From: Siphonobacter curvatus
GTDB taxonomy: Bacteria; Bacteroidota; Bacteroidia; Cytophagales; Spirosomataceae
Length of the DNA: 24,000 nt
Assembly (NCBI RefSeq): GCF_002943425.1
Contig: NZ_PTRA01000002.1
Span: 100,090 to 124,089 of the forward strand
Reading direction: 5' to 3'
Both the position numbers and the translations under genes were made by a program. Within the stretch, counting starts at the first letter, position 1. Each line of letters begins with the position of its first letter. The notes beneath the pieces were generated by a model. The model worked only from the letters and a program-made list of their open reading frames with translations, was not told the DNA's origin and made no database searches. Shown in pieces: positions 4,638 to 9,863 of the stretch.

Positions 4638-5690
4638 TTAGCCGGAAGGCTGCTCGATTATCAGAGGTGAACTGTCCTCTTGGTAATGTTCTAGGACTGC
4701 CCGAGCGTTCTTCATCATTCGATCCCTGAGCATGCGGGGCCGTAGTACCTTTATCTTCCCGCCAAAGCCAAGGAATTCCCGTTCCAGTTCAAAGTTGACA
4801 ATAACCCGGATGCGAAATACTGAACCCAATGAATCTTTGGAGAGCAACTCCTGCGACGCATGCAGGGGTTTCGTAACCACATAGGGGGCATTGGAGGCAG
4901 CAACCCAGAAAACCACTTCACAGTTTTTCTGACCAGGGGTCTTGGTTACGCCAATTACATCGGAATAAAAGGTTTGTAAATCCAGGATCTCGTTGGGGCG
5001 ATAGGCTTCATTCAAATCTTCCTGCAAGGCATGAATCCGATCTAAGGCTAACGTGAGAATAGGCTTACGCTTCTGATGCGATTGCCCGAGTATAAACCAG
5101 CGGTTGCGATACTCTTTTAACAGATACGGACTAAAACAGAACGTAGCCGACTGCCGGGCCCGGAAGGATTGGTACGTCATACAAAGCGTTGTTTTCGAAA
5201 CAATGGCCTTCCGAATGGTTTCGATGTAATTCAATCCCAGTAAATGCTCATTCTTTTCAAAATCCACTACTGGTAAACTGCTCGTTTGCTGGGTGTAAAT
5301 CTTGTCCTGCAGTTTACTAACCATTTCCCGCAAGTCCGCAAAGTGGTTCAGTCCTTTGAATTGTTGTAATAAACCCGCCACTTCCCCCAGGAGTTGCATA
5401 TCCTGAGCATTCAAAGGAATGTTGGTGATGCTGAAATGCTTATCGGCGTAGGTATAATACTTGCGGTCCACTACGATAATGGGAGCTTCATAGCCCAGTT
5501 TCGAACTTCGCATCATCTCCAGATCGGACTGAACGGTTCGACGGCTTACCCCCTTTTCAAGGCCCTGATACTCGTACAGGGCTTGTGAACAGGCTTCCAT
5601 CAAATCCTCCAGAGTCCACGTGCGGTATCGATTCTGCAGACATTGATCAATGGTTCGGTAGCGAATGAGGGCGTTGCGATTGAGCGGCAT
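4638..5690 (-). CDS. WYL domain-containing transcriptional regulator (N-terminal HTH)
   Basis: 350 aa. The N-terminus MPLNRNALIRYRTIDQCLQNRYRTWTLEDLMEAC...GVSRRTVQSDLEMMR is the HTH module typical of Bacteroidota WYL regulators. The central region (FSPYLLKEYRNRWFILG) fits the WYL core. It is transcribed divergently from the Ro60 gene. Confidence 0.8.
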   Translation of the reverse strand: MPLNRNALIRYRTIDQCLQNRYRTWTLEDLMEACSQALYEYQGLEKGVSRRTVQSDLEMMRSSKLGYEAPIIVVDRKYYTYADKHFSITNIPLNAQDMQLLGEVAGLLQQFKGLNHFADLREMVSKLQDKIYTQQTSSLPVVDFEKNEHLLGLNYIETIRKAIVSKTTLCMTYQSFRARQSATFCFSPYLLKEYRNRWFILGQSHQKRKPILTLALDRIHALQEDLNEAYRPNEILDLQTFYSDVIGVTKTPGQKNCEVVFWVAASNAPYVVTKPLHASQELLSKDSLGSVFRIRVIVNFELEREFLGFGGKIKVLRPRMLRDRMMKNARAVLEHYQEDSSPLIIEQPSG

Positions 5691-5723
5691 GAGAAAAAAA
5701 TTTCAGAAAATTAGAAATTATTT

Positions 5724-5752
5724 TCTACTACGCACAAAGACTGCGTAGTAGA
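5724..5752. promoter_or_regulatory. Perfect 11-bp inverted repeat in the divergent WYL/rsr promoter region (candidate operator or 5'-UTR hairpin)
   Basis: TCTACTACGCA (5724-5734), a 7-nt spacer CAAAGAC, then TGCGTAGTAGA (5742-5752), the exact reverse complement. It lies 34 nt from the WYL start and 40 nt upstream of the rsr ATG. Confidence 0.5.
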
Positions 5753-5791
5753 CTTAAACCTTTGTATCGTCAACGGAAAACAAAGACAGTT

Positions 5792-7354
5792 ATGAAATTC
5801 AATACAACGCCTCAACAAAGTCAGCCGATCCTGAACCATGAAGGAGCGAAAGCCTACCGCATGAATCCAGCTCTGGAGTTGTATTCAACCGTAGTAACCT
5901 GGTCTTTGAATGATACCTTTTACGAGCCCAATGATGAGCGACTCATCCGGATACGCAATCTGATTGCTCAGAATGATCCGGGTTTTGTAGCAAAACTGGC
6001 CATTTACGCCCGGCATGAGATGTATCTGCGTTCGGCTCCTCTGGTACTACTGGCAGAATTGGCCCGTATTCACTCCGGGGATGACCTCGTCGCCCGAATG
6101 ACGGAGCGGGTCATTGCCCGTGCCGATGAAATTACGGAGCTGCTGGCCTGCTATCAGGCTCTAAACGAACGAACCGGTTTGAAAAAACTCAATCGGTTAT
6201 CTAAGCAACTGCAAAAAGGGCTGGCTTCGGCATTTAACCAATTTGATGCGTATCAATTTGCTAAATACAATCGAAATACGGCTATCAAACTGCGGGATGC
6301 CTTGTTTTTAGTTCATCCCAAAGCTAAAAATCTAGCTCAACAGGAAATTTTCAATCAGATTGTAACCAACACATTACCTGTACCCTATACCTGGGAAACC
6401 GAATTGTCAGCGTTGGGGCAGCAAAAGTTTAAATTAGCCACAGAAAAAGAGGCTGCCTTTCAGCAAAAGTGGGAAGAACTGATCGATAGTAACAAACTGG
6501 GGTACATGGCTTTGCTGCGAAACCTGCGAAATGTGTTCGAAGCCGGGGTCTCGTATGCACATCTGAAAAAAGCCGTCAATACTTTAGCCTCGCCTGAACA
6601 GGTCGCCCGGTCGAAGCAGTTTCCCTTCCGCTATTTAGCCGCTTATCGTGAGTTACAGGGAACGGAAATGAAACGTCCTAAGCAGGAAGGCTGGATTGGA
6701 AAAGTTTTCAGTGGTCAAGGGTACGTAGGAGAGGTTTTGGACGGATTGGAAAAGGCCGTAGTTCAAAGTGCCCGTCGGATTCAGGGTTTCGATGAACATA
6801 CCCGCGTACTGTTAGCCTGCGACGTATCGGGCTCGATGCAGAAGCCTGTTTCACCGCAGTCCAGTATCTTACTTTACGATATTGGTTTGATGCTAGCTAT
6901 GCTGTTACAATCCCGTTGCAGGAATGTACAGGTTGGAATGTTCGGCGATAGCTGGAAGCGAATTCAGGTTCCTAAAAATCGAATCCTCGCCAATGTGCAT
7001 GAATTCTATAAACGAGAGGGAGAGGTAGGCTATGCTACTAATGGTTATCTAGTATTAAAAGAACTGATAGACCGCCGCCAGAAAATGGATAAAATCATGT
7101 TTTTCACGGATTTGCAGCTCTGGAACAGCGGCTCAGGGAGCGATCAGCTAAGTAAGCTGTGGGGGAAGTATAAACAGGAGATTCACCCTTCAGCCCGTCT
7201 GTATTTGTTTGACTTAAGTGGTTACGGCAAAACGCCCCTACAAGTCCTCCGGAATGATGTATACCTGATTGCGGGCTGGAGTGATAAAATCTTCGGGGTA
7301 CTGGAAGCCCTTGAAAAGGGTGAGTCAATTCTGGAAATGATTATGAATTATTGA
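5792..7354 (+). CDS. rsr: Ro60 ortholog (Rsr): TROVE domain plus C-terminal vWA domain
   Basis: The N-terminus NHEGAKAYRMNPALELYSTVVTWSLNDTFYEPNDERL...YARHEMYLRSAP is a TROVE signature. The C-terminal LLACDVSGSM is a vWA MIDAS DxSxS motif. The start is placed at ATG 5792 (MKFNTTPQQ) rather than the TTG at 5762 given by the ORF track. Confidence 0.9.
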   Translation: MKFNTTPQQSQPILNHEGAKAYRMNPALELYSTVVTWSLNDTFYEPNDERLIRIRNLIAQNDPGFVAKLAIYARHEMYLRSAPLVLLAELARIHSGDDLVARMTERVIARADEITELLACYQALNERTGLKKLNRLSKQLQKGLASAFNQFDAYQFAKYNRNTAIKLRDALFLVHPKAKNLAQQEIFNQIVTNTLPVPYTWETELSALGQQKFKLATEKEAAFQQKWEELIDSNKLGYMALLRNLRNVFEAGVSYAHLKKAVNTLASPEQVARSKQFPFRYLAAYRELQGTEMKRPKQEGWIGKVFSGQGYVGEVLDGLEKAVVQSARRIQGFDEHTRVLLACDVSGSMQKPVSPQSSILLYDIGLMLAMLLQSRCRNVQVGMFGDSWKRIQVPKNRILANVHEFYKREGEVGYATNGYLVLKELIDRRQKMDKIMFFTDLQLWNSGSGSDQLSKLWGKYKQEIHPSARLYLFDLSGYGKTPLQVLRNDVYLIAGWSDKIFGVLEALEKGESILEMIMNY

Positions 7355-7434
7355 TTTTAATAACGCTTAACGGTAAGGTTTTCACACCTAACTGTGCTTA
7401 GTACGGTACGGGCTAAGTTTTAGAAGCCCAGCCC

Positions 7435-7556
7435 AAAGGATGCCGTAGCATCGGGATACTTCGCAGCATGTAGGGGGGGGCATTATGACTTCGGTCAGGA
7501 TGGAGGTTCGAGTCCTCTTTGCGATACCCCGCTCCCGATTCGCCCGTCGCTCCTTT
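7435..7556 (+). ncRNA. Y-RNA-like module 1: tRNA-like cloverleaf with a UUCG-capped stub replacing the anticodon arm
   Basis: Leader box AAGGATGCCGTAG lies at 7436-7448. The T-arm is GGAGG-TTCGAGT-CCTCT (7502-7518). The stub is TGAC-TTCG-GTCA (7486-7497). The D-like arm is ATG-loop(TAGGGGGGGG)-CAT (7468-7483). An acceptor-like stem pairs 7461-7466 with 7519-7524. An outer stem pairs ATCGGGA (7450-7456) with TCCCGAT (7533-7539). A closing stem pairs AAAGGA (7435-7440) with TCCTTT (7551-7556). Confidence 0.7.
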
Positions 7557-7609
7557 CAATATCGTTATTGAACTTGAAATCCGTTCGTTACTTTTCTAAA
7601 TGCTTTTAT

Positions 7610-8368
7610 ATGAAAGATAGAATCGCTAGCCTTTTTATGGACAAAAGCGAAATTCCGCTTTTTTACATTGAAAGTGGGAGTCGGCTTTGGGGGATTGCCA
7701 GTCCCGATAGTGACTTTGATGTGCGAGGTTTTCACCTTCCGGCCAAAACAAATTACTTCGATTTTAAGAAACAGCGGGATGTATGGGAGGTAATGGATGG
7801 AGAACTGGATTTTGTATCATACGATCTGGATAAGATGTTTGGATTGTTACAAAAAAGTAACCCTACAGTTTTTGAGTGGGTGCGAGCCGATCTGATGTAT
7901 TGGAATGAACTACCTGATTGGGATACATTTCGTAGTGAAGTTAGCGAAAATATCAATTTTAAAGCTCTTTACTATCATTACCACTCGTTGGCTAAGAGTC
8001 ACTTTTACAAGCTGGAAAGCGATCAGAAGTTTACGTATAAAGTAGCGTTTTACTGCATGCGGGGTCTTCTGTCCGCGGAATTAGCCAGCCGGCAAGTAGT
8101 GCCAGAGCTTTTGATCGACGATCTCTTCAAGCAGTTTAATACTGAATCTGAGGTGATCAAACTTGCAAAGGCTAGTCTGGAAAGAAAAAGACAGCAAACG
8201 GAAAAAGAAGAAATAAAGGAAGAAGATAAACAAAAGATCATACAAGGCATTAAAGCTTATTTATATCGTTTTGAGAGCATTACGCCAGGAGGTAGTTCAA
8301 CTCAGGCAAAATTGGATAGAGTTCTAACGAATTATAGTGTTCAAATAAAATCCATGTTTTATGCCTGA
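7610..8368 (+). CDS. RlaP-type (YcgL-like, pol-beta superfamily) nucleotidyltransferase associated with RNA-repair loci
   Basis: The motif ESGSRLWGIASPDSDFDVRGFH matches the nucleotidyltransferase signature G-S-x9-13-D-x-D. The start is placed at ATG 7610 (MKDRIASLF), because the listed TTG at 7568 adds 14 poorly coding residues. The gene lies between tRNA-like RNA modules and downstream of rsr. Confidence 0.75.
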   Translation: MKDRIASLFMDKSEIPLFYIESGSRLWGIASPDSDFDVRGFHLPAKTNYFDFKKQRDVWEVMDGELDFVSYDLDKMFGLLQKSNPTVFEWVRADLMYWNELPDWDTFRSEVSENINFKALYYHYHSLAKSHFYKLESDQKFTYKVAFYCMRGLLSAELASRQVVPELLIDDLFKQFNTESEVIKLAKASLERKRQQTEKEEIKEEDKQKIIQGIKAYLYRFESITPGGSSTQAKLDRVLTNYSVQIKSMFYA

Positions 8369-8444
8369 ATGGATACCGGCTGGTATTAAAAATGCAGCTT
8401 TACAAAGCCGAAGGTGTTACTGACTTGGTAGCAAAAACTAGTTT

Positions 8445-8568
8445 TAAGGATGTCGTAGAAACGGGTTACTTCGTATGGAATCTACTGAGAGTGAGCCTAT
8501 TGACCAGGTCAGTAGGTAGGTTCGAATCCTCTGAAAGGTCACCCACCCGAATTGCTGGTTACTCCTGA
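8445..8568 (+). ncRNA. Y-RNA-like module 2 (degenerate paralog of module 1)
   Basis: Leader box AAGGATGTCGTAG lies at 8446-8458. CTTCG at 8469-8473 is at the same offset as in module 1. The T-arm-like element is GTAGG-TTCGAAT-CCTCT (8516-8532), with one U-C mismatch. A hairpin TGAC-CAG-GTCA lies at 8501-8511. The stem CGGGT (8462-8466) / ACCCG (8545-8549) covaries with the module 1 stem. AGGA (8447-8450) pairs with TCCT (8563-8566). Confidence 0.5.
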
Positions 8569-8598
8569 ATCATTACAACCCACCCGTTAACAAGAAAA

Positions 8599-8717
8599 GA
8601 AGGTGTCGTATCGCGGCGTTGCTTCGTGTCGCCGGTTCGAATCCGGCTCTGGTCAGCCAGGTAGCTCAGTAGGTAGAGCAGATTTTTGCCCCGAGCTTAT
8701 TACCCTTCTCCACCTTT
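8599..8717 (+). ncRNA. yrlA: YrlA-like Y RNA (module 3): circularly permuted tRNA mimic
   Basis: Leader box AAGGTGTCGTA lies at 8600-8610. The T-arm GCCGG-TTCGAAT-CCGGC (8631-8647) is perfect. It is followed by a closed acceptor-like hairpin TCTGG-TCAG-CCAGG (8648-8661), then TA, then a canonical D-arm GCTC-AGTAGGTA-GAGC (8664-8679). A stem pairs 8611-8618 with 8687-8694. A closing stem pairs AAGGTG (8600-8605) with CACCTT (8711-8716). Confidence 0.8.
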
Positions 8718-8838
8718 AAAGGTGCCGTAAAACAGTGATCCTTCGGTTAGAACATCCGTGCCGATGGGCCGGAAGGTCGCAGGTTCGAGCCCTGCCTTAT
8801 AGTTCAGTTAATAAAGCACTGTTTGCCTGTTGCCCTTT
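8718..8838 (+). ncRNA. Y-RNA-like module 4 (T-arm intact, D-arm decayed)
   Basis: Leader box AAGGTGCCGTA lies at 8719-8729. A variable-loop-like AGGTC (8774-8778) precedes a perfect T-arm GCAGG-TTCGAGC-CCTGC (8779-8795). The downstream TAGTTCAGTTAATAAAGCA (8800-8818) matches the module 3 D-arm segment at 14 of 19 positions, with the loop GG changed to AA. An 8-bp stem pairs AAACAGTG (8730-8737) with CACTGTTT (8817-8824). AAAGG (8718-8722) pairs with CCTTT (8834-8838), followed by a U-rich ATTATTTG. Confidence 0.55.
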
Positions 8839-9182
8839 ATTATTTGTGTAGCATTGGATTAATACGCTAATCTATACTTATTTTAAACGCTTAAACTTAT
8901 AATACAAAACTTGAATGACTTTAATATTTATAATCAACGAATTGTTAATTCTTCTCTAAGTATACATTAGGTAGTAATATGTAAGATTGTATTTAGTAAA
9001 TATCCTTATTAAATAGTTGCTTATCAAGTGGTGTGATTTGCAGTAAATTAAACGATTTAAACTTTAAATATTAATTAAGTAATAAAATAATTTAATCCAT
9101 AAGTATTATTTAATTTACTCAGGTATTAACCTCATATTTTGATAGAAGATTTTAAATAAAAAGTGTTTTCATTAATCATTTT

Positions 9183-9219
9183 AAAGAGTTGCCTGTTAGT
9201 TTACAGGCAACTCTTTTTT
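9183..9219 (+). terminator. Strong rho-independent terminator inside the AT-rich island
   Basis: AAAGAGTTGCCTGT (9183-9196) and ACAGGCAACTCTTT (9203-9216) form a 14-bp perfect stem with a 6-nt loop. The T-run spans 9214-9219. The better T-tract is on the plus strand. Confidence 0.75.
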
Positions 9220-9423
9220 AACTACACTTAATAAATGTAGTTAAGAATAATATTCCTCTAAAATAATTGACCTAACAAATGATCAAGATGCTTAAGTAAG
9301 GCTCAATGAGTAAGAAATGTACGATGTAGTAGCTAGCTCGATGCCCATAGCCTTCATCAAAATATGCTCAGAATTCATCTAATAACGTGATGTAGAATTG
9401 TGTTGTAGTAATTATTGATTTAT

Positions 9424-9445
9424 TTTGTAGTATTAATACTACAAA
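9424..9445. repeat. 22-bp perfect palindrome TTTGTAGTATTAATACTACAAA
   Basis: Read directly: 9424-9434 is the exact reverse complement of 9435-9445. It contains the TGTAGT motif on both strands. Confidence 0.9.
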
Positions 9446-9863
9446 TACATTTTGTACTTAAGAAGTAATGCTCATTTGATGATATTAAGCAATTAATATA
9501 TGTCATTAAATATCATAATTACTACTATAAAATGCGTAAGATATTTAGTATTTGTTTCAGTGTATCTTTTTTTTATAGTAAAGCTAGTTCTTATATACGT
9601 ATAAGTTTGTACAATAATTACTCAAGAAATTGTAGTTTTGTTAGTTTGAAAAAATATCAAAGTTTAACATTTAATAGTACTTAGCTATCTATTATGTGAT
9701 TAGCTGAGCTAAAATTTCCGAACTAGGTTTTGTCAGAATTCGAGGATCTGTTTTCGAATAATTGAATCAAAATGTATAGGAAATTACGATCCTTCCTATC
9801 AGCTGATACATGATTTAGCAATAATGGCAACTCTAGTTATCCTATTAGTCCTGATTAAATACC

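What the first reader, a model, noticed from the sequence alone, without database searches (positions are those of the whole stretch)
7435..7556. Module 1 uses the opposite topology: standard-order cloverleaf, UUCG-capped anticodon stub, open acceptor stem continuing into a long helix
Between rsr and the nucleotidyltransferase gene the elements occur in normal tRNA order. There is an acceptor 5' strand (7461-7466) and a 3-bp D-like stem with a loop containing a run of eight G (7473-7480). Then comes a 4-bp stem capped by a canonical cUUCGg tetraloop (7486-7497) where the anticodon arm would be. A 4-nt variable region, the T-arm (7502-7518) and the acceptor 3' strand (7519-7524) follow. Instead of ending in CCA, the helix continues (ATCGGGA/TCCCGAT, then AAAGGA/TCCTTT). 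Two different ways of embedding a tRNA mimic in a Y-RNA scaffold within one locus would be unusual. The G8 tract is also a potential slippage site.
Basis: inference. Interest (0 to 1): 0.7.

Follow-up and report, generated by a model that had tools for sequence, protein, structure and literature searches.

The report
Pseudoknotted tRNA-like Y RNA beside rsr

Summary
Window 7435-7556 (+) is a real, conserved RNA gene. A covariance model built from relatives scores it at 119 bits. The same RNA lies just downstream of rsr, on the same strand, in 60 of 80 Bacteroidota rsr loci.

- the terminal stem (7435-7456 / 7533-7556);
- the acceptor-like helix (7461-7466 / 7519-7524);
- the T arm, and the normal (non-permuted) order of elements.

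Two parts are wrong. The "D-like stem" is not conserved (33% paired, no better than shuffles). The "4-bp UUCG stub" is the tip of a 9-bp hairpin (7481-7502).

The G8 tract is not a loop. Its first four Gs are complementary to CCCC at 7526-7529, just 3' of the acceptor strand. This pairing is kept through compensatory variants in relatives and paralogs (GAGGAA/UUCCUC, GGAGG/CCUCC, AGGUGA/UCAUCU, GGGUGA/UCACCC). Together with the acceptor-like helix it forms a pseudoknot.

Rfam 15 and ARAGORN do not recognise the RNA, and I found no paper describing it. The closest precedents are D. radiodurans Yrn1 (same orientation) and YrlA (permuted). I file it as a new variant of a known kind. Its function (Rsr binding, partner recruitment in an RNA-repair operon) is inferred, not shown.

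The parts
7435..7440 (+). P1, 5' strand of the terminal stem (AAAGGA); pairs with 7551-7556
   Evidence: Six pairs. Covariation at A4 columns 6/198 (UA 42, AU 26), 9/195 (GC 61, AU 12) and 10/194 (GC 51, AU 24).
7440..7449 (+). Conserved 5'-strand motif A-UGCCGUAG-C (family consensus AUGYCGUAR), the putative Rsr/Ro60 contact. Partly paired with 7542-7550 around a 2-nt bulge (7547-7548).
   Evidence: A7440, U7441, G7442, C7444, G7445, U7446 and A7447 are invariant in 60 sequences. Pair 7443-7549 covaries (CG 47, UA 25). The motif resembles the GNCGAAN0-1G motif of bacterial Y RNAs (PMC4201824).
7450..7456 (+). P2, 5' strand (AUCGGGA); pairs with 7533-7539
   Evidence: Six of seven pairs show changes on both sides (helix 3).
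7457..7463 (+). Invariant UACUUCG. The UAC follows the stem like the YUAY motif of YrlA. UCG (7461-7463) begins helix a.
   Evidence: Invariant in all 60 aligned sequences. The same motif occurs in the other Y-RNA types of these loci.
7461..7466 (+). Helix a, 5' strand (UCGCAG), the acceptor-like helix; pairs with 7519-7524
   Evidence: Strong covariation. Within the genus, UCGCAG/UUGCGA here against UCGUAG/UUACGG in L081.
7473..7480 (+). G8 tract. By alignment it is helix b 5' strand (7473-7476, register ambiguous), a spacer G, the conserved GG (7478-7479) and one more G.
   Evidence: Relatives read GGGGG-N-GG-N. Complementarity to the downstream C run is kept through variants. RNAalifold predicts the pairing on its own.
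7481..7502 (+). Hairpin c: 9-bp stem (7481-7489 / 7494-7502, one A-G mismatch at 7485/7498) capped by UUCG (7490-7493). Relatives carry GNRA or other loops.
   Evidence: All nine pairs have changes on both sides in A4 (helix 6).
7503..7517 (+). T arm: 4-bp stem (7503-7506 / 7514-7517, with an optional G7502-U7518 pair) and 7-nt T loop UUCGAGU (7507-7513)
   Evidence: The stem covaries (A4 column pair 113/148: AU 26, GC 23, UG 14, CG 10). G7506, U7507, U7508, C7509, A7511, U7513 and C7514 are invariant.
7519..7524 (+). Helix a, 3' strand (UUGCGA)
   Evidence: See helix a.
7526..7529 (+). Helix b, 3' strand (CCCC). Pairs with the start of the G tract, crossing helix a, which makes the pseudoknot.
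   Evidence: The fixed-column test is uninformative because both strands are homopolymers.
7533..7539 (+). P2, 3' strand (UCCCGAU)
   Evidence: helix 3.
7540..7556 (+). 3' strand of the Rsr-binding stem and P1 (UCGCCCGUCGC-UCCUUU)
   Evidence: helices 1-2. U7547, U7551 and U7554 are invariant.

Best explanation
Window 7435-7556 encodes a roughly 122-nt noncoding Y RNA of a subfamily I call "type A". It is co-oriented with rsr and immediately downstream of it.

Its 5' and 3' ends pair into a long stem (P1, a bulged helix carrying the conserved AUGYCGUAR motif, then P2). By analogy with all characterised Y RNAs, this stem is the Rsr/Ro60 docking site.

The distal "head" is tRNA-derived and in normal tRNA order. 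It is not a cloverleaf. It consists of:
- an invariant UACUUCG junction;
- a short acceptor-like helix a;
- a 9-bp tetraloop hairpin c where the anticodon arm would be;
- a canonical T arm, followed almost directly by the 3' strand of helix a;
- a G-run : C-run helix b. Its 5' strand lies between a and c, and its 3' strand lies 0-4 nt after a'.

The order a < b < a' < b' makes a pseudoknot. The a'-b' linker is very short, and the a-to-b linker is 6 nt or longer in most members (58 of 66). I therefore infer that a and b stack end to end on a continuous 3' strand. That would extend the T-arm/acceptor-like stack into the Rsr stem, with hairpin c projecting from the junction.

Likely function (inferred, not shown): a compact, nuclease-resistant, tRNA-like handle on the Rsr ring. 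It would recruit or present a tRNA-binding or RNA-repair partner such as RlaP, RtcB or PNPase, or gate access to Rsr, within a WYL-regulated RNA-repair operon.
For: Family and context:
- Model R1 finds this RNA at 119 bits. It finds type-A copies at 85 bits or more in 60 of 80 Bacteroidota rsr loci, and all 228 hits are on the rsr strand.
- It is also present in Siphonobacter SORGH_AS_1065 (116 bits).

Structure:
- The whole structure is 79.8% paired, against 66.5% in shuffles and 45-48% in slid registers. 32 of 43 pairs show double changes.
- Helix a has a covariation score of 0.313 against 0.127 in shuffles (0 of 500 reached it), and all slid registers scored 0.11 or less.
- Helix b is complementary in every type-A member. 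It is kept through GAGGAA/UUCCUC, GGAGG/CCUCC, AGGUGA/UCAUCU, GGGGC/GCCCC and GGGUGA/UCACCC.
- Own-partner duplex energy averages -10.14 kcal/mol, against -9.42 +/- 0.17 for permuted partners (0 of 5000 as low).
- RNAalifold predicts helix b independently.

Ties to Y RNAs:
- The motifs shared with Y RNAs are a GNCGAA-like 5' motif, YUAY and the T arm (PMC4201824).

Operon context:
- The neighbours are a WYL-WCX regulator, TROVE/Ro60 and RlaP here, and RlaP or RtcB in relatives.
- RlaP adds 1-2 nucleotides to damaged RNA 3' ends (PMC12776372).
Against: - There is no expression, end-mapping or Rsr-binding evidence for any member.
- Helix b is mostly invariant G:C, so the fixed-column covariation test is not significant. 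Its support rests on about five variant lineages and on register-free tests, which relatedness can inflate.
- Single-sequence folding is not more stable than shuffles (z = +1.5).
- The 3D arrangement (coaxial a/b, linker paths) is reasoned from linker lengths only.
- Helix a is short: 3-7 contiguous pairs, median 4.
- No D-loop partner for the T loop is evident, so tRNA-like here means only the T arm plus an acceptor-like stack.
Confidence: 0.7

Rival explanations
1. One reading: a standard cloverleaf with a 3-bp D-like stem whose loop holds the G8 run, a 4-bp UUCG-capped anticodon stub, a 4-nt variable region, a T arm and an open acceptor stem.
For: Every element can be drawn on this one sequence. 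The Rfam tRNA model aligns acceptor plus T arm to 7460-7526 at 12.8 bits (E = 4.1).
Against: - The D-like stem is paired in 32.7% of cells and is not above shuffles.
- Its 3' strand (7481-7483) belongs to the covarying 9-bp hairpin c.
- The G run has a conserved, covarying partner 3' of the acceptor strand.
- ARAGORN finds no tRNA, and 12.8 bits is far below the tRNA gathering score of 29.
Confidence: 0.04
2. There is only a nested three-way junction and no pseudoknot. Helices a, c and T form, while the G run and C run stay single-stranded and are conserved for another reason, such as protein contacts or tertiary contacts with the T loop.
For: With fixed columns helix b shows no covariation beyond composition. 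The conserved GG could in principle serve as a D-loop-like partner of the T loop, as G18 and G19 do in tRNA (general tRNA knowledge).
Against: - When the G run changes (GGAGG, GAGGAAAU, AGGUGA, GGGUGA), the C run changes to match. This holds in separate lineages and in paralogs within one locus.
- Variant G strands pair much worse with other members' C strands (for example -10.6 against -5.8 kcal/mol).
Confidence: 0.15
3. Helices a and b are alternative, mutually exclusive conformations. The RNA would switch between a tRNA-like form and a form that sequesters the C run.
For: Crossing helices joined by short linkers can be sterically strained. The G tract allows register slippage.
Against: - The two helices share no nucleotides.
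- The a-to-b linker is 6 nt or longer in most members (58 of 66), roughly what is needed to span both helices if they stack.
- Nothing in the alignment suggests a competing partner for either strand.
Confidence: 0.07
4. It is not an independent RNA. It would be a structured 3' UTR of rsr, a leader or attenuator of rlaP, or a decaying tRNA pseudogene.
For: It lies in the 213-nt gap between the rsr and rlaP reading frames. No sigma-70-like promoter was found within 7300-9300 near it. A weak terminator-like hairpin sits at 7392-7411.
Against: - In most relatives it is followed by further Y-RNA genes, not by rlaP.
- It shares its closing stem and motifs with the YrlA-like RNAs of the same arrays.
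- Its structure is conserved, with covariation, across classes of Bacteroidota. A pseudogene would not show that.
- Co-transcription with rsr followed by processing is normal for Y RNAs (PMC4201824).
Confidence: 0.04

Closest known systems
Deinococcus radiodurans Yrn1 (Y RNA 1)
   Same: It is an Rsr-linked Y RNA with a terminal Ro60-binding stem. Its head carries a T arm preceded by an anticodon-arm-like hairpin, which is the orientation opposite to YrlA. It has no full D arm (PMC4201824).
   Different: - Yrn1 is described with three stem-loops and no pseudoknot.
- It lies upstream of rsr.
- No orthologues were found outside Deinococcus.
- I could not obtain its sequence, so homology was not tested.
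YrlA (Rfam RF02553), the tRNA-mimicking Y RNA of Salmonella, Mycobacterium and others
   Same: It is encoded next to rsr on the same strand. It shares a 5'-strand GNCG(A/U)A motif, a YUAY-type junction motif and a canonical T arm. A YrlA-like copy sits in the same operon at 8597-8713.
   Different: - YrlA is circularly permuted (T arm, closed acceptor hairpin, D arm), and its anticodon stem opens into the Y stem.
- The RNA here has the acceptor-like helix opening into the Y stem, no D arm, and a pseudoknot.
- The Rfam YrlA model gives no hit on 7420-7575 even at E <= 10.
tRNA and tRNA-like domains (for example the tmRNA tRNA-like domain and viral tRNA-like structures with pseudoknotted acceptor arms)
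   Same: It has a T arm with a UUCGANU loop directly 5' of an acceptor-like 3' strand. There is a weak Rfam tRNA alignment (12.8 bits). Building a tRNA-like shape with the help of a pseudoknot has precedents in viral tRNA-like structures (my own knowledge).
   Different: - There is no free 3' end, no CCA, no D arm and no 7-nt anticodon loop.
- The pseudoknot joins the D-arm position to the post-acceptor trailer rather than forming the acceptor stem itself.

Membership tests
Bacterial Y RNA (Rsr/Ro60-associated ncRNA) | Encoded within a few kb of rsr on the same strand | tested here: met
   It starts 81 nt after the rsr stop codon. All 228 model hits in 81 sources are on the rsr strand.
Bacterial Y RNA (Rsr/Ro60-associated ncRNA) | Long stem formed by pairing of the 5' and 3' ends | tested here: met
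   P1, P1b and P2 (7435-7456 / 7533-7556) covary.
Bacterial Y RNA (Rsr/Ro60-associated ncRNA) | Conserved 5'-strand Ro60 motif (GNCGAAN0-1G in YrlA-type RNAs; GGUCCGA in metazoa) | tested here: inconclusive
   An invariant G-Y-C-G-U-A-R sits at 7442-7448. It differs from the published motif at one position (U for A).
Bacterial Y RNA (Rsr/Ro60-associated ncRNA) | Physically bound and stabilised by Rsr | not testable with these tools
   This needs immunoprecipitation or a binding assay.
YrlA (RF02553) | Matches the Rfam covariance model at its gathering score | tested here: not met
   There is no YrlA hit on 7420-7575 even at E <= 10 with lax filters.
YrlA (RF02553) | Permuted order: T arm, then closed acceptor hairpin, then D arm, with the anticodon stem opening into the Y stem | tested here: not met
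   The order here is acceptor 5' strand, hairpin, T arm, acceptor 3' strand. No D arm follows the T arm.
YrlA (RF02553) | Conserved T arm and YUAY junction motif | tested here: met
   The T loop core is invariant. AUAC here, and UUAC or CUAC in relatives, directly follows P2 (motif as described in PMC4201824).
Yrn1 (D. radiodurans) | T arm preceded by an anticodon-arm-like hairpin, in the orientation opposite to YrlA | tested here: met
   Hairpin c (7481-7502) directly precedes the T arm (7503-7517).
Yrn1 (D. radiodurans) | Sequence or structure homology to Yrn1 itself | not testable with these tools
tRNA | Cloverleaf with D arm, 7-nt anticodon loop and 7-bp acceptor stem, recognised by tRNA finders | tested here: not met
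   ARAGORN finds none. The Rfam tRNA model scores 12.8 bits against a gathering score of 29. The D stem is unsupported, and the hairpin has a tetraloop.
RNA pseudoknot | Two helices whose strands interleave (i<k<j<l), each supported on its own | tested here: inconclusive
   Helix a is strongly supported. Helix b is supported by compensatory variants, a permutation test and RNAalifold, but not by the fixed-column test. The interleaved order is 7461 < 7473 < 7524 < 7529.

The most novel reading that the evidence does not exclude
Bacteroidota rsr operons may encode a set of Y RNAs that present the same tRNA body opened at three different places:
- at the acceptor end (this type A, locked by a pseudoknot that sequesters a CCA-like C run);
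- at the anticodon loop (YrlA);
- at the D loop (the RNA at 8712-8849).

Type A would be the most conserved member and a previously unannotated, phylum-wide Y-RNA class. It would also be the first Y RNA with a pseudoknotted head. The different openings would orient the tRNA-like handle differently on the Rsr ring, for different repair or decay partners such as RlaP, RtcB and PNPase.
Probability: 0.4. Interest if true: 0.75.

Novelty: new variant of a known kind. Interest (0 to 1): 0.62.

Why it matters
Y RNAs tether Ro60/Rsr to effectors. Only two bacterial architectures have been described: YrlA, which has a solved head domain, and Yrn1, which has no known orthologues.

A third architecture that is widespread and strongly conserved would change what "tRNA mimicry" by Y RNAs means. 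Here only a T-arm/acceptor-like stack is kept, and the D arm is replaced by a pseudoknot.

This also gives experimentally tractable organisms for study (Flavobacterium, Mucilaginibacter, Pedobacter, Bacteroides). The sequences can serve as a seed alignment for an Rfam family. Several permutations of a tRNA body occur in one WYL-regulated operon with RlaP or RtcB. That offers a direct handle on how Rsr-Y RNPs take part in RNA repair.

The work also corrects gene calls. In L081, for example, the called RlaP start overlaps the RNA.

Tried and rejected
- **Rfam and ARAGORN.** An Rfam gathering scan of the whole window and ARAGORN found nothing at the locus. Lax Rfam scans gave only sub-threshold tRNA (12.8 bits) and mascRNA (11.4 bits) alignments.
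- **Single-sequence folding.** MFE folding pairs the G run with the T-arm 3' strand. This alternative has no comparative support: 58.9% paired and not above shuffles.
Rejected.
- **Fixed-column covariation for helix b.** Uninformative because both strands are homopolymers. I replaced it with register-free duplex and permutation tests.
- **Mutual-information scan for tertiary pairs.** It returned mostly the Sphingobacteriia/Flavobacteriia split and no convincing extra contact.
- **Invariant GUA/UAC pairing.** RNAalifold proposed 7445-7447 with 7457-7459. It conflicts with the covarying P2 and never varies, so I did not adopt it.
- **Comparison with D. radiodurans Yrn1.** No supplementary files were held, and PDB searches did not reach D. 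radiodurans Rsr.
- **Exact look-up of this window's Rsr.** Nothing on record.
- **Literature.** Searches for a pseudoknotted or Bacteroidota-specific Y RNA found nothing. The library lacks many subscription papers.
- **A tRNA-like L-shape with helix b acting as the D stem.** Rejected on geometry. The 0-4 nt a'-b' linker cannot reach from the top of the acceptor-like helix to the elbow. This is inference only.

Full report
**Context.** The window comes from a Siphonobacter-like member of Bacteroidota. The closest locus is Siphonobacter sp. BAB-5405, whose Rsr is 96% identical. The gene order is:
- a divergent WYL-WCX regulator (4638-5690, minus strand);
- rsr, the TROVE/Ro60 gene (5762-7354);
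- the RNA in question (7435-7556);
- an RlaP-family nucleotidyltransferase (frame 7568-8368; the likely ATG is at 7610);
- three further RNA modules (about 8440-8578, 8597-8713 and 8712-8849);
- an AT-rich spacer.

Rfam at gathering thresholds and ARAGORN report nothing in the window. At a relaxed threshold only 8597-8713 matches YrlA (44.6 bits, E = 4.8e-8, gathering score 69). That match shows the permuted order of T arm, closed acceptor hairpin and D arm.

**Checking the observation.** On its own the sequence is not unusually stable (MFE -37.7 kcal/mol, z = +1.5). The MFE fold keeps only the outer stem and the acceptor-like helix. The question therefore had to be settled by comparison with relatives.

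**Relatives.** I fetched 80 Bacteroidota rsr loci. The 5' motif GG?ATG[CT]CGTAG occurs 76 times in the 80 loci plus the window, nearly all just downstream of rsr. A MAFFT alignment of 60 non-identical module-1-type sequences covers Sphingobacteriia, Cytophagia, Flavobacteriia and Bacteroidia (A2). It shows these invariant blocks:
- AUG-CGUA (7440-7447);
- UACUUCG (7457-7463);
- the T-loop core G-UUC-A-UC (7506-7514);
- parts of the 3' strand.

I built covariance model R1 from this alignment without the G-run/C-run helix. It scores the window copy at 119 bits. It finds type-A copies at 85 bits or more in 60 of the 80 loci, usually as the first RNA after rsr. All 228 hits at E <= 0.01 lie on the rsr strand. 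Window 8440-8578 is a diverged paralog at 69.9 bits. A further Siphonobacter genome (L081) has the RNA between rsr and rlaP at 116 bits.

**What the covariation supports.**
- P1 (7435-7440 / 7551-7556), the bulged helix carrying the conserved motif (7442-7445 with 7545-7546 and 7549-7550), and P2 (7450-7456 / 7533-7539) all covary.
- The acceptor-like helix a (7461-7466 / 7519-7524) is strongly supported. The middle pairs read CG 37, UA 22, GC 5, AU 2 and CG 22, UA 14, AU 6, UG 6, GU 4. The covariation score is 0.313 against 0.127 in shuffles (0 of 500 reached it), and all slid registers scored 0.11 or less.
- Within Siphonobacter the helix changes from UCGCAG/UUGCGA to UCGUAG/UUACGG.
- The hairpin in the anticodon-arm position is 9 bp long (7481-7489 / 7494-7502). 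All nine pairs show double changes. Its loop is UUCG here and GNRA or other in relatives.
- The T stem (7503-7506 / 7514-7517) covaries.

**What the covariation does not support.** The MFE alternative that pairs the G run with the T-arm 3' strand is also unsupported. The "4-bp stub" is simply the top of hairpin c.

**The G tract.**
- In relatives the region reads GGGG(G)-N-GG-N and is followed directly by hairpin c. A run CCCC(C) follows the 3' strand of helix a after 0-4 nt.
- The two runs are complementary in every type-A member.
- The complementarity survives change: GAGGAA(AU)/(AU)UUCCUC in a paralogous lineage (L018, L026, L028, L033), GGAGG/CCUCC (L036), AGGUGA/UCAUCU (L041), GGGGC/GCCCC (L032), and GGGUGA/UCACCC or GUGA/UCAC in the module-2 paralogs of L001 and this window.
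- Own-partner duplex energies average -10.14 kcal/mol, against -9.42 +/- 0.17 for permuted partners (0 of 5000 as low). Variant G strands pair poorly with other members' C strands.
- RNAalifold on the MAFFT alignment predicts this helix on its own.
- The fixed-column test is uninformative, because homopolymers pair in any register. I therefore rate helix b as probable rather than proven.

The strands are ordered 7461 < 7473 < 7524 < 7529, so helices a and b cross. The head is a pseudoknot, not a cloverleaf.

**Inferred architecture (inference from linker lengths).**
- The a'-to-b' linker is 0-4 nt in nearly all members.
- The a-to-b linker is 6 nt or longer in most members (58 of 66; mode 6, median 7).
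- The b-to-c linker is 2-6 nt and holds a conserved GG.
- The c-to-T linker is 0-1 nt (read from the alignment).
- The T-to-a' linker is usually 1-3 nt.

The simplest arrangement has a and b stacked end to end on the continuous a'-b' strand. That continues the T-arm/acceptor-like stack towards P2 and the Rsr-binding stem, with hairpin c projecting from the junction. A tRNA-like L-shape with b acting as the D stem seems sterically excluded by the short a'-b' linker. No D-loop-type partner of the T loop is apparent.

**How it likely works.**
- Shown: a conserved structured RNA is tied to rsr in position and strand. It has a terminal stem carrying a motif like the published Ro60 motif (GNCGAAN0-1G, here GYCGUAR), a YUAY-type junction and a T arm. 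All of these are shared with YrlA-type Y RNAs (PMC4201824).
- Inferred: it binds Rsr through the stem. Its compact pseudoknotted head acts as the effector module, meaning a nuclease-resistant handle that recruits a tRNA-binding or RNA-repair partner or gates Rsr.
- The operon partners fit this reading. RlaP is present here and in Sphingobacteriia/Cytophagia, and RtcB plus TatD in a Flavobacterium locus. A WYL-WCX regulator was found upstream in the loci examined (L035, L048, L081).
- RlaP adds one or two nucleotides to damaged RNA 3' ends (PMC12776372).
- RNase P or RNase Z release of a tRNA-sized species seems unlikely. The acceptor-like helix is short (3-7 contiguous pairs), and the C run that occupies the CCA position is paired. 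This is untested.

**Comparison with what is known.** Chen et al. 2014 already noted that D. radiodurans Yrn1 and YrlA carry their T and D elements in opposite orientations. In Yrn1 the intervening stem-loop corresponds to the anticodon arm, and Yrn1 lacks a full D arm. Type A shares that orientation. However, Yrn1 is described with three stem-loops and no pseudoknot, lies upstream of rsr, and had no orthologues outside Deinococcus. I could not obtain its sequence, so homology stays open. Type A fails the YrlA tests (no model hit, no permuted order, no D arm) and the tRNA tests. I found no paper or Rfam family describing it, within the limits of the library.

**G-tract variation.** The tract reads GGGGG-U-GGG in Siphonobacter SORGH_AS_1065, G8 in this window and G7 in strain BAB-5405. 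A U-to-G change appears to have fused the helix-b strand, the spacer and the conserved GG into one homopolymer, which then varies in length. At least four Gs remain available for the CCCC partner. Assembly error in homopolymers cannot be excluded.

**Verdict.** The object is a real, conserved Y-RNA-type gene with a non-permuted tRNA-derived head. It is a new variant of a known kind and of moderate to high specialist interest. Its function is inferred only.

Noticed in passing
window 8712-8849 (+); relatives L012:6315, L017:6262, L016:6635, L003:6274: The fourth RNA module looks like a tRNA body opened in the D loop. The order is Y stem, UCCUUC-GG-UUA, GAAC (8750-8753), an anticodon-like arm (8755-8773), the T arm (8779-8795), CUUAUA, GUUC (8802-8805), AGUU, then Y stem. 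The D stem GAAC/GUUC becomes GAGC/GCUC in L003. Relatives keep a closed acceptor-like hairpin after the T arm, which the window copy lacks. This would be a third permutation in the same operon.
   Followed up: partly
window 8440-8578 (+); L001:6639-6777: Module 2 is a diverged paralog of module 1 (69.9 bits with model R1). It has the same architecture but different pseudoknot sequences: helix b is GUGA/UCAC (GGGUGA/UCACCC in L001), and helix a is built from CUUCG with YGAAAG. It lacks the conserved GG.
   Followed up: partly
window 8597-8713 (+): A YrlA-like RNA with the permuted order (T arm, closed hairpin, D arm). It scores 44.6 bits, below Rfam's gathering score of 69, so standard annotation would miss it.
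   Followed up: partly
L001-L080, about 5550-6900 in each locus (downstream of rsr): Each Bacteroidota rsr locus carries an array of about 3-7 Y-RNA-like genes on the rsr strand. They share the AUGYCGUAR ... YUACUUCG stem and junction but have different heads: type A, YrlA-like, D-loop-opened, short hairpin types, and a small T-arm type (GGUGAAACCGCGUAAGCGG-T arm). Model R1 gave 228 hits.
   Followed up: partly
L081:4613-4749 versus the called gene at 4669-5523: In Siphonobacter sp. SORGH_AS_1065 the annotated RlaP reading frame starts inside the type-A RNA, so the start codon is probably called too far upstream. In this window, likewise, the mechanical ORF starts at TTG 7568, but an in-frame ATG at 7610 is more plausible.
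   Followed up: no
window 4638-5690 (-); L035:2134-3165; L048:1994-3031; L081:1856-2899: A WYL-WCX regulator is conserved divergently upstream of rsr across Cytophagia and Flavobacteriia. This suggests the rsr / Y RNA / RlaP (or RtcB) operon is controlled by a ligand-sensing WYL protein rather than by RtcR.
   Followed up: no
PDB entries 9l5y and 9kop: The only solved structures matching this Rsr at E ~ 1e-28 are two recent "TROVE domain-containing protein" entries. Xenopus Ro60 (1yvp) matches only weakly (E = 1.8e-4 with a profile), and D. radiodurans Rsr was not retrieved.
   Followed up: no
window 8840-9860: About 1 kb of very AT-rich sequence with no long ORFs follows the RNA array. It contains a terminator-like hairpin near 9185-9220 and precedes a LytTR response-regulator gene. 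Its role is unexplained.
   Followed up: no
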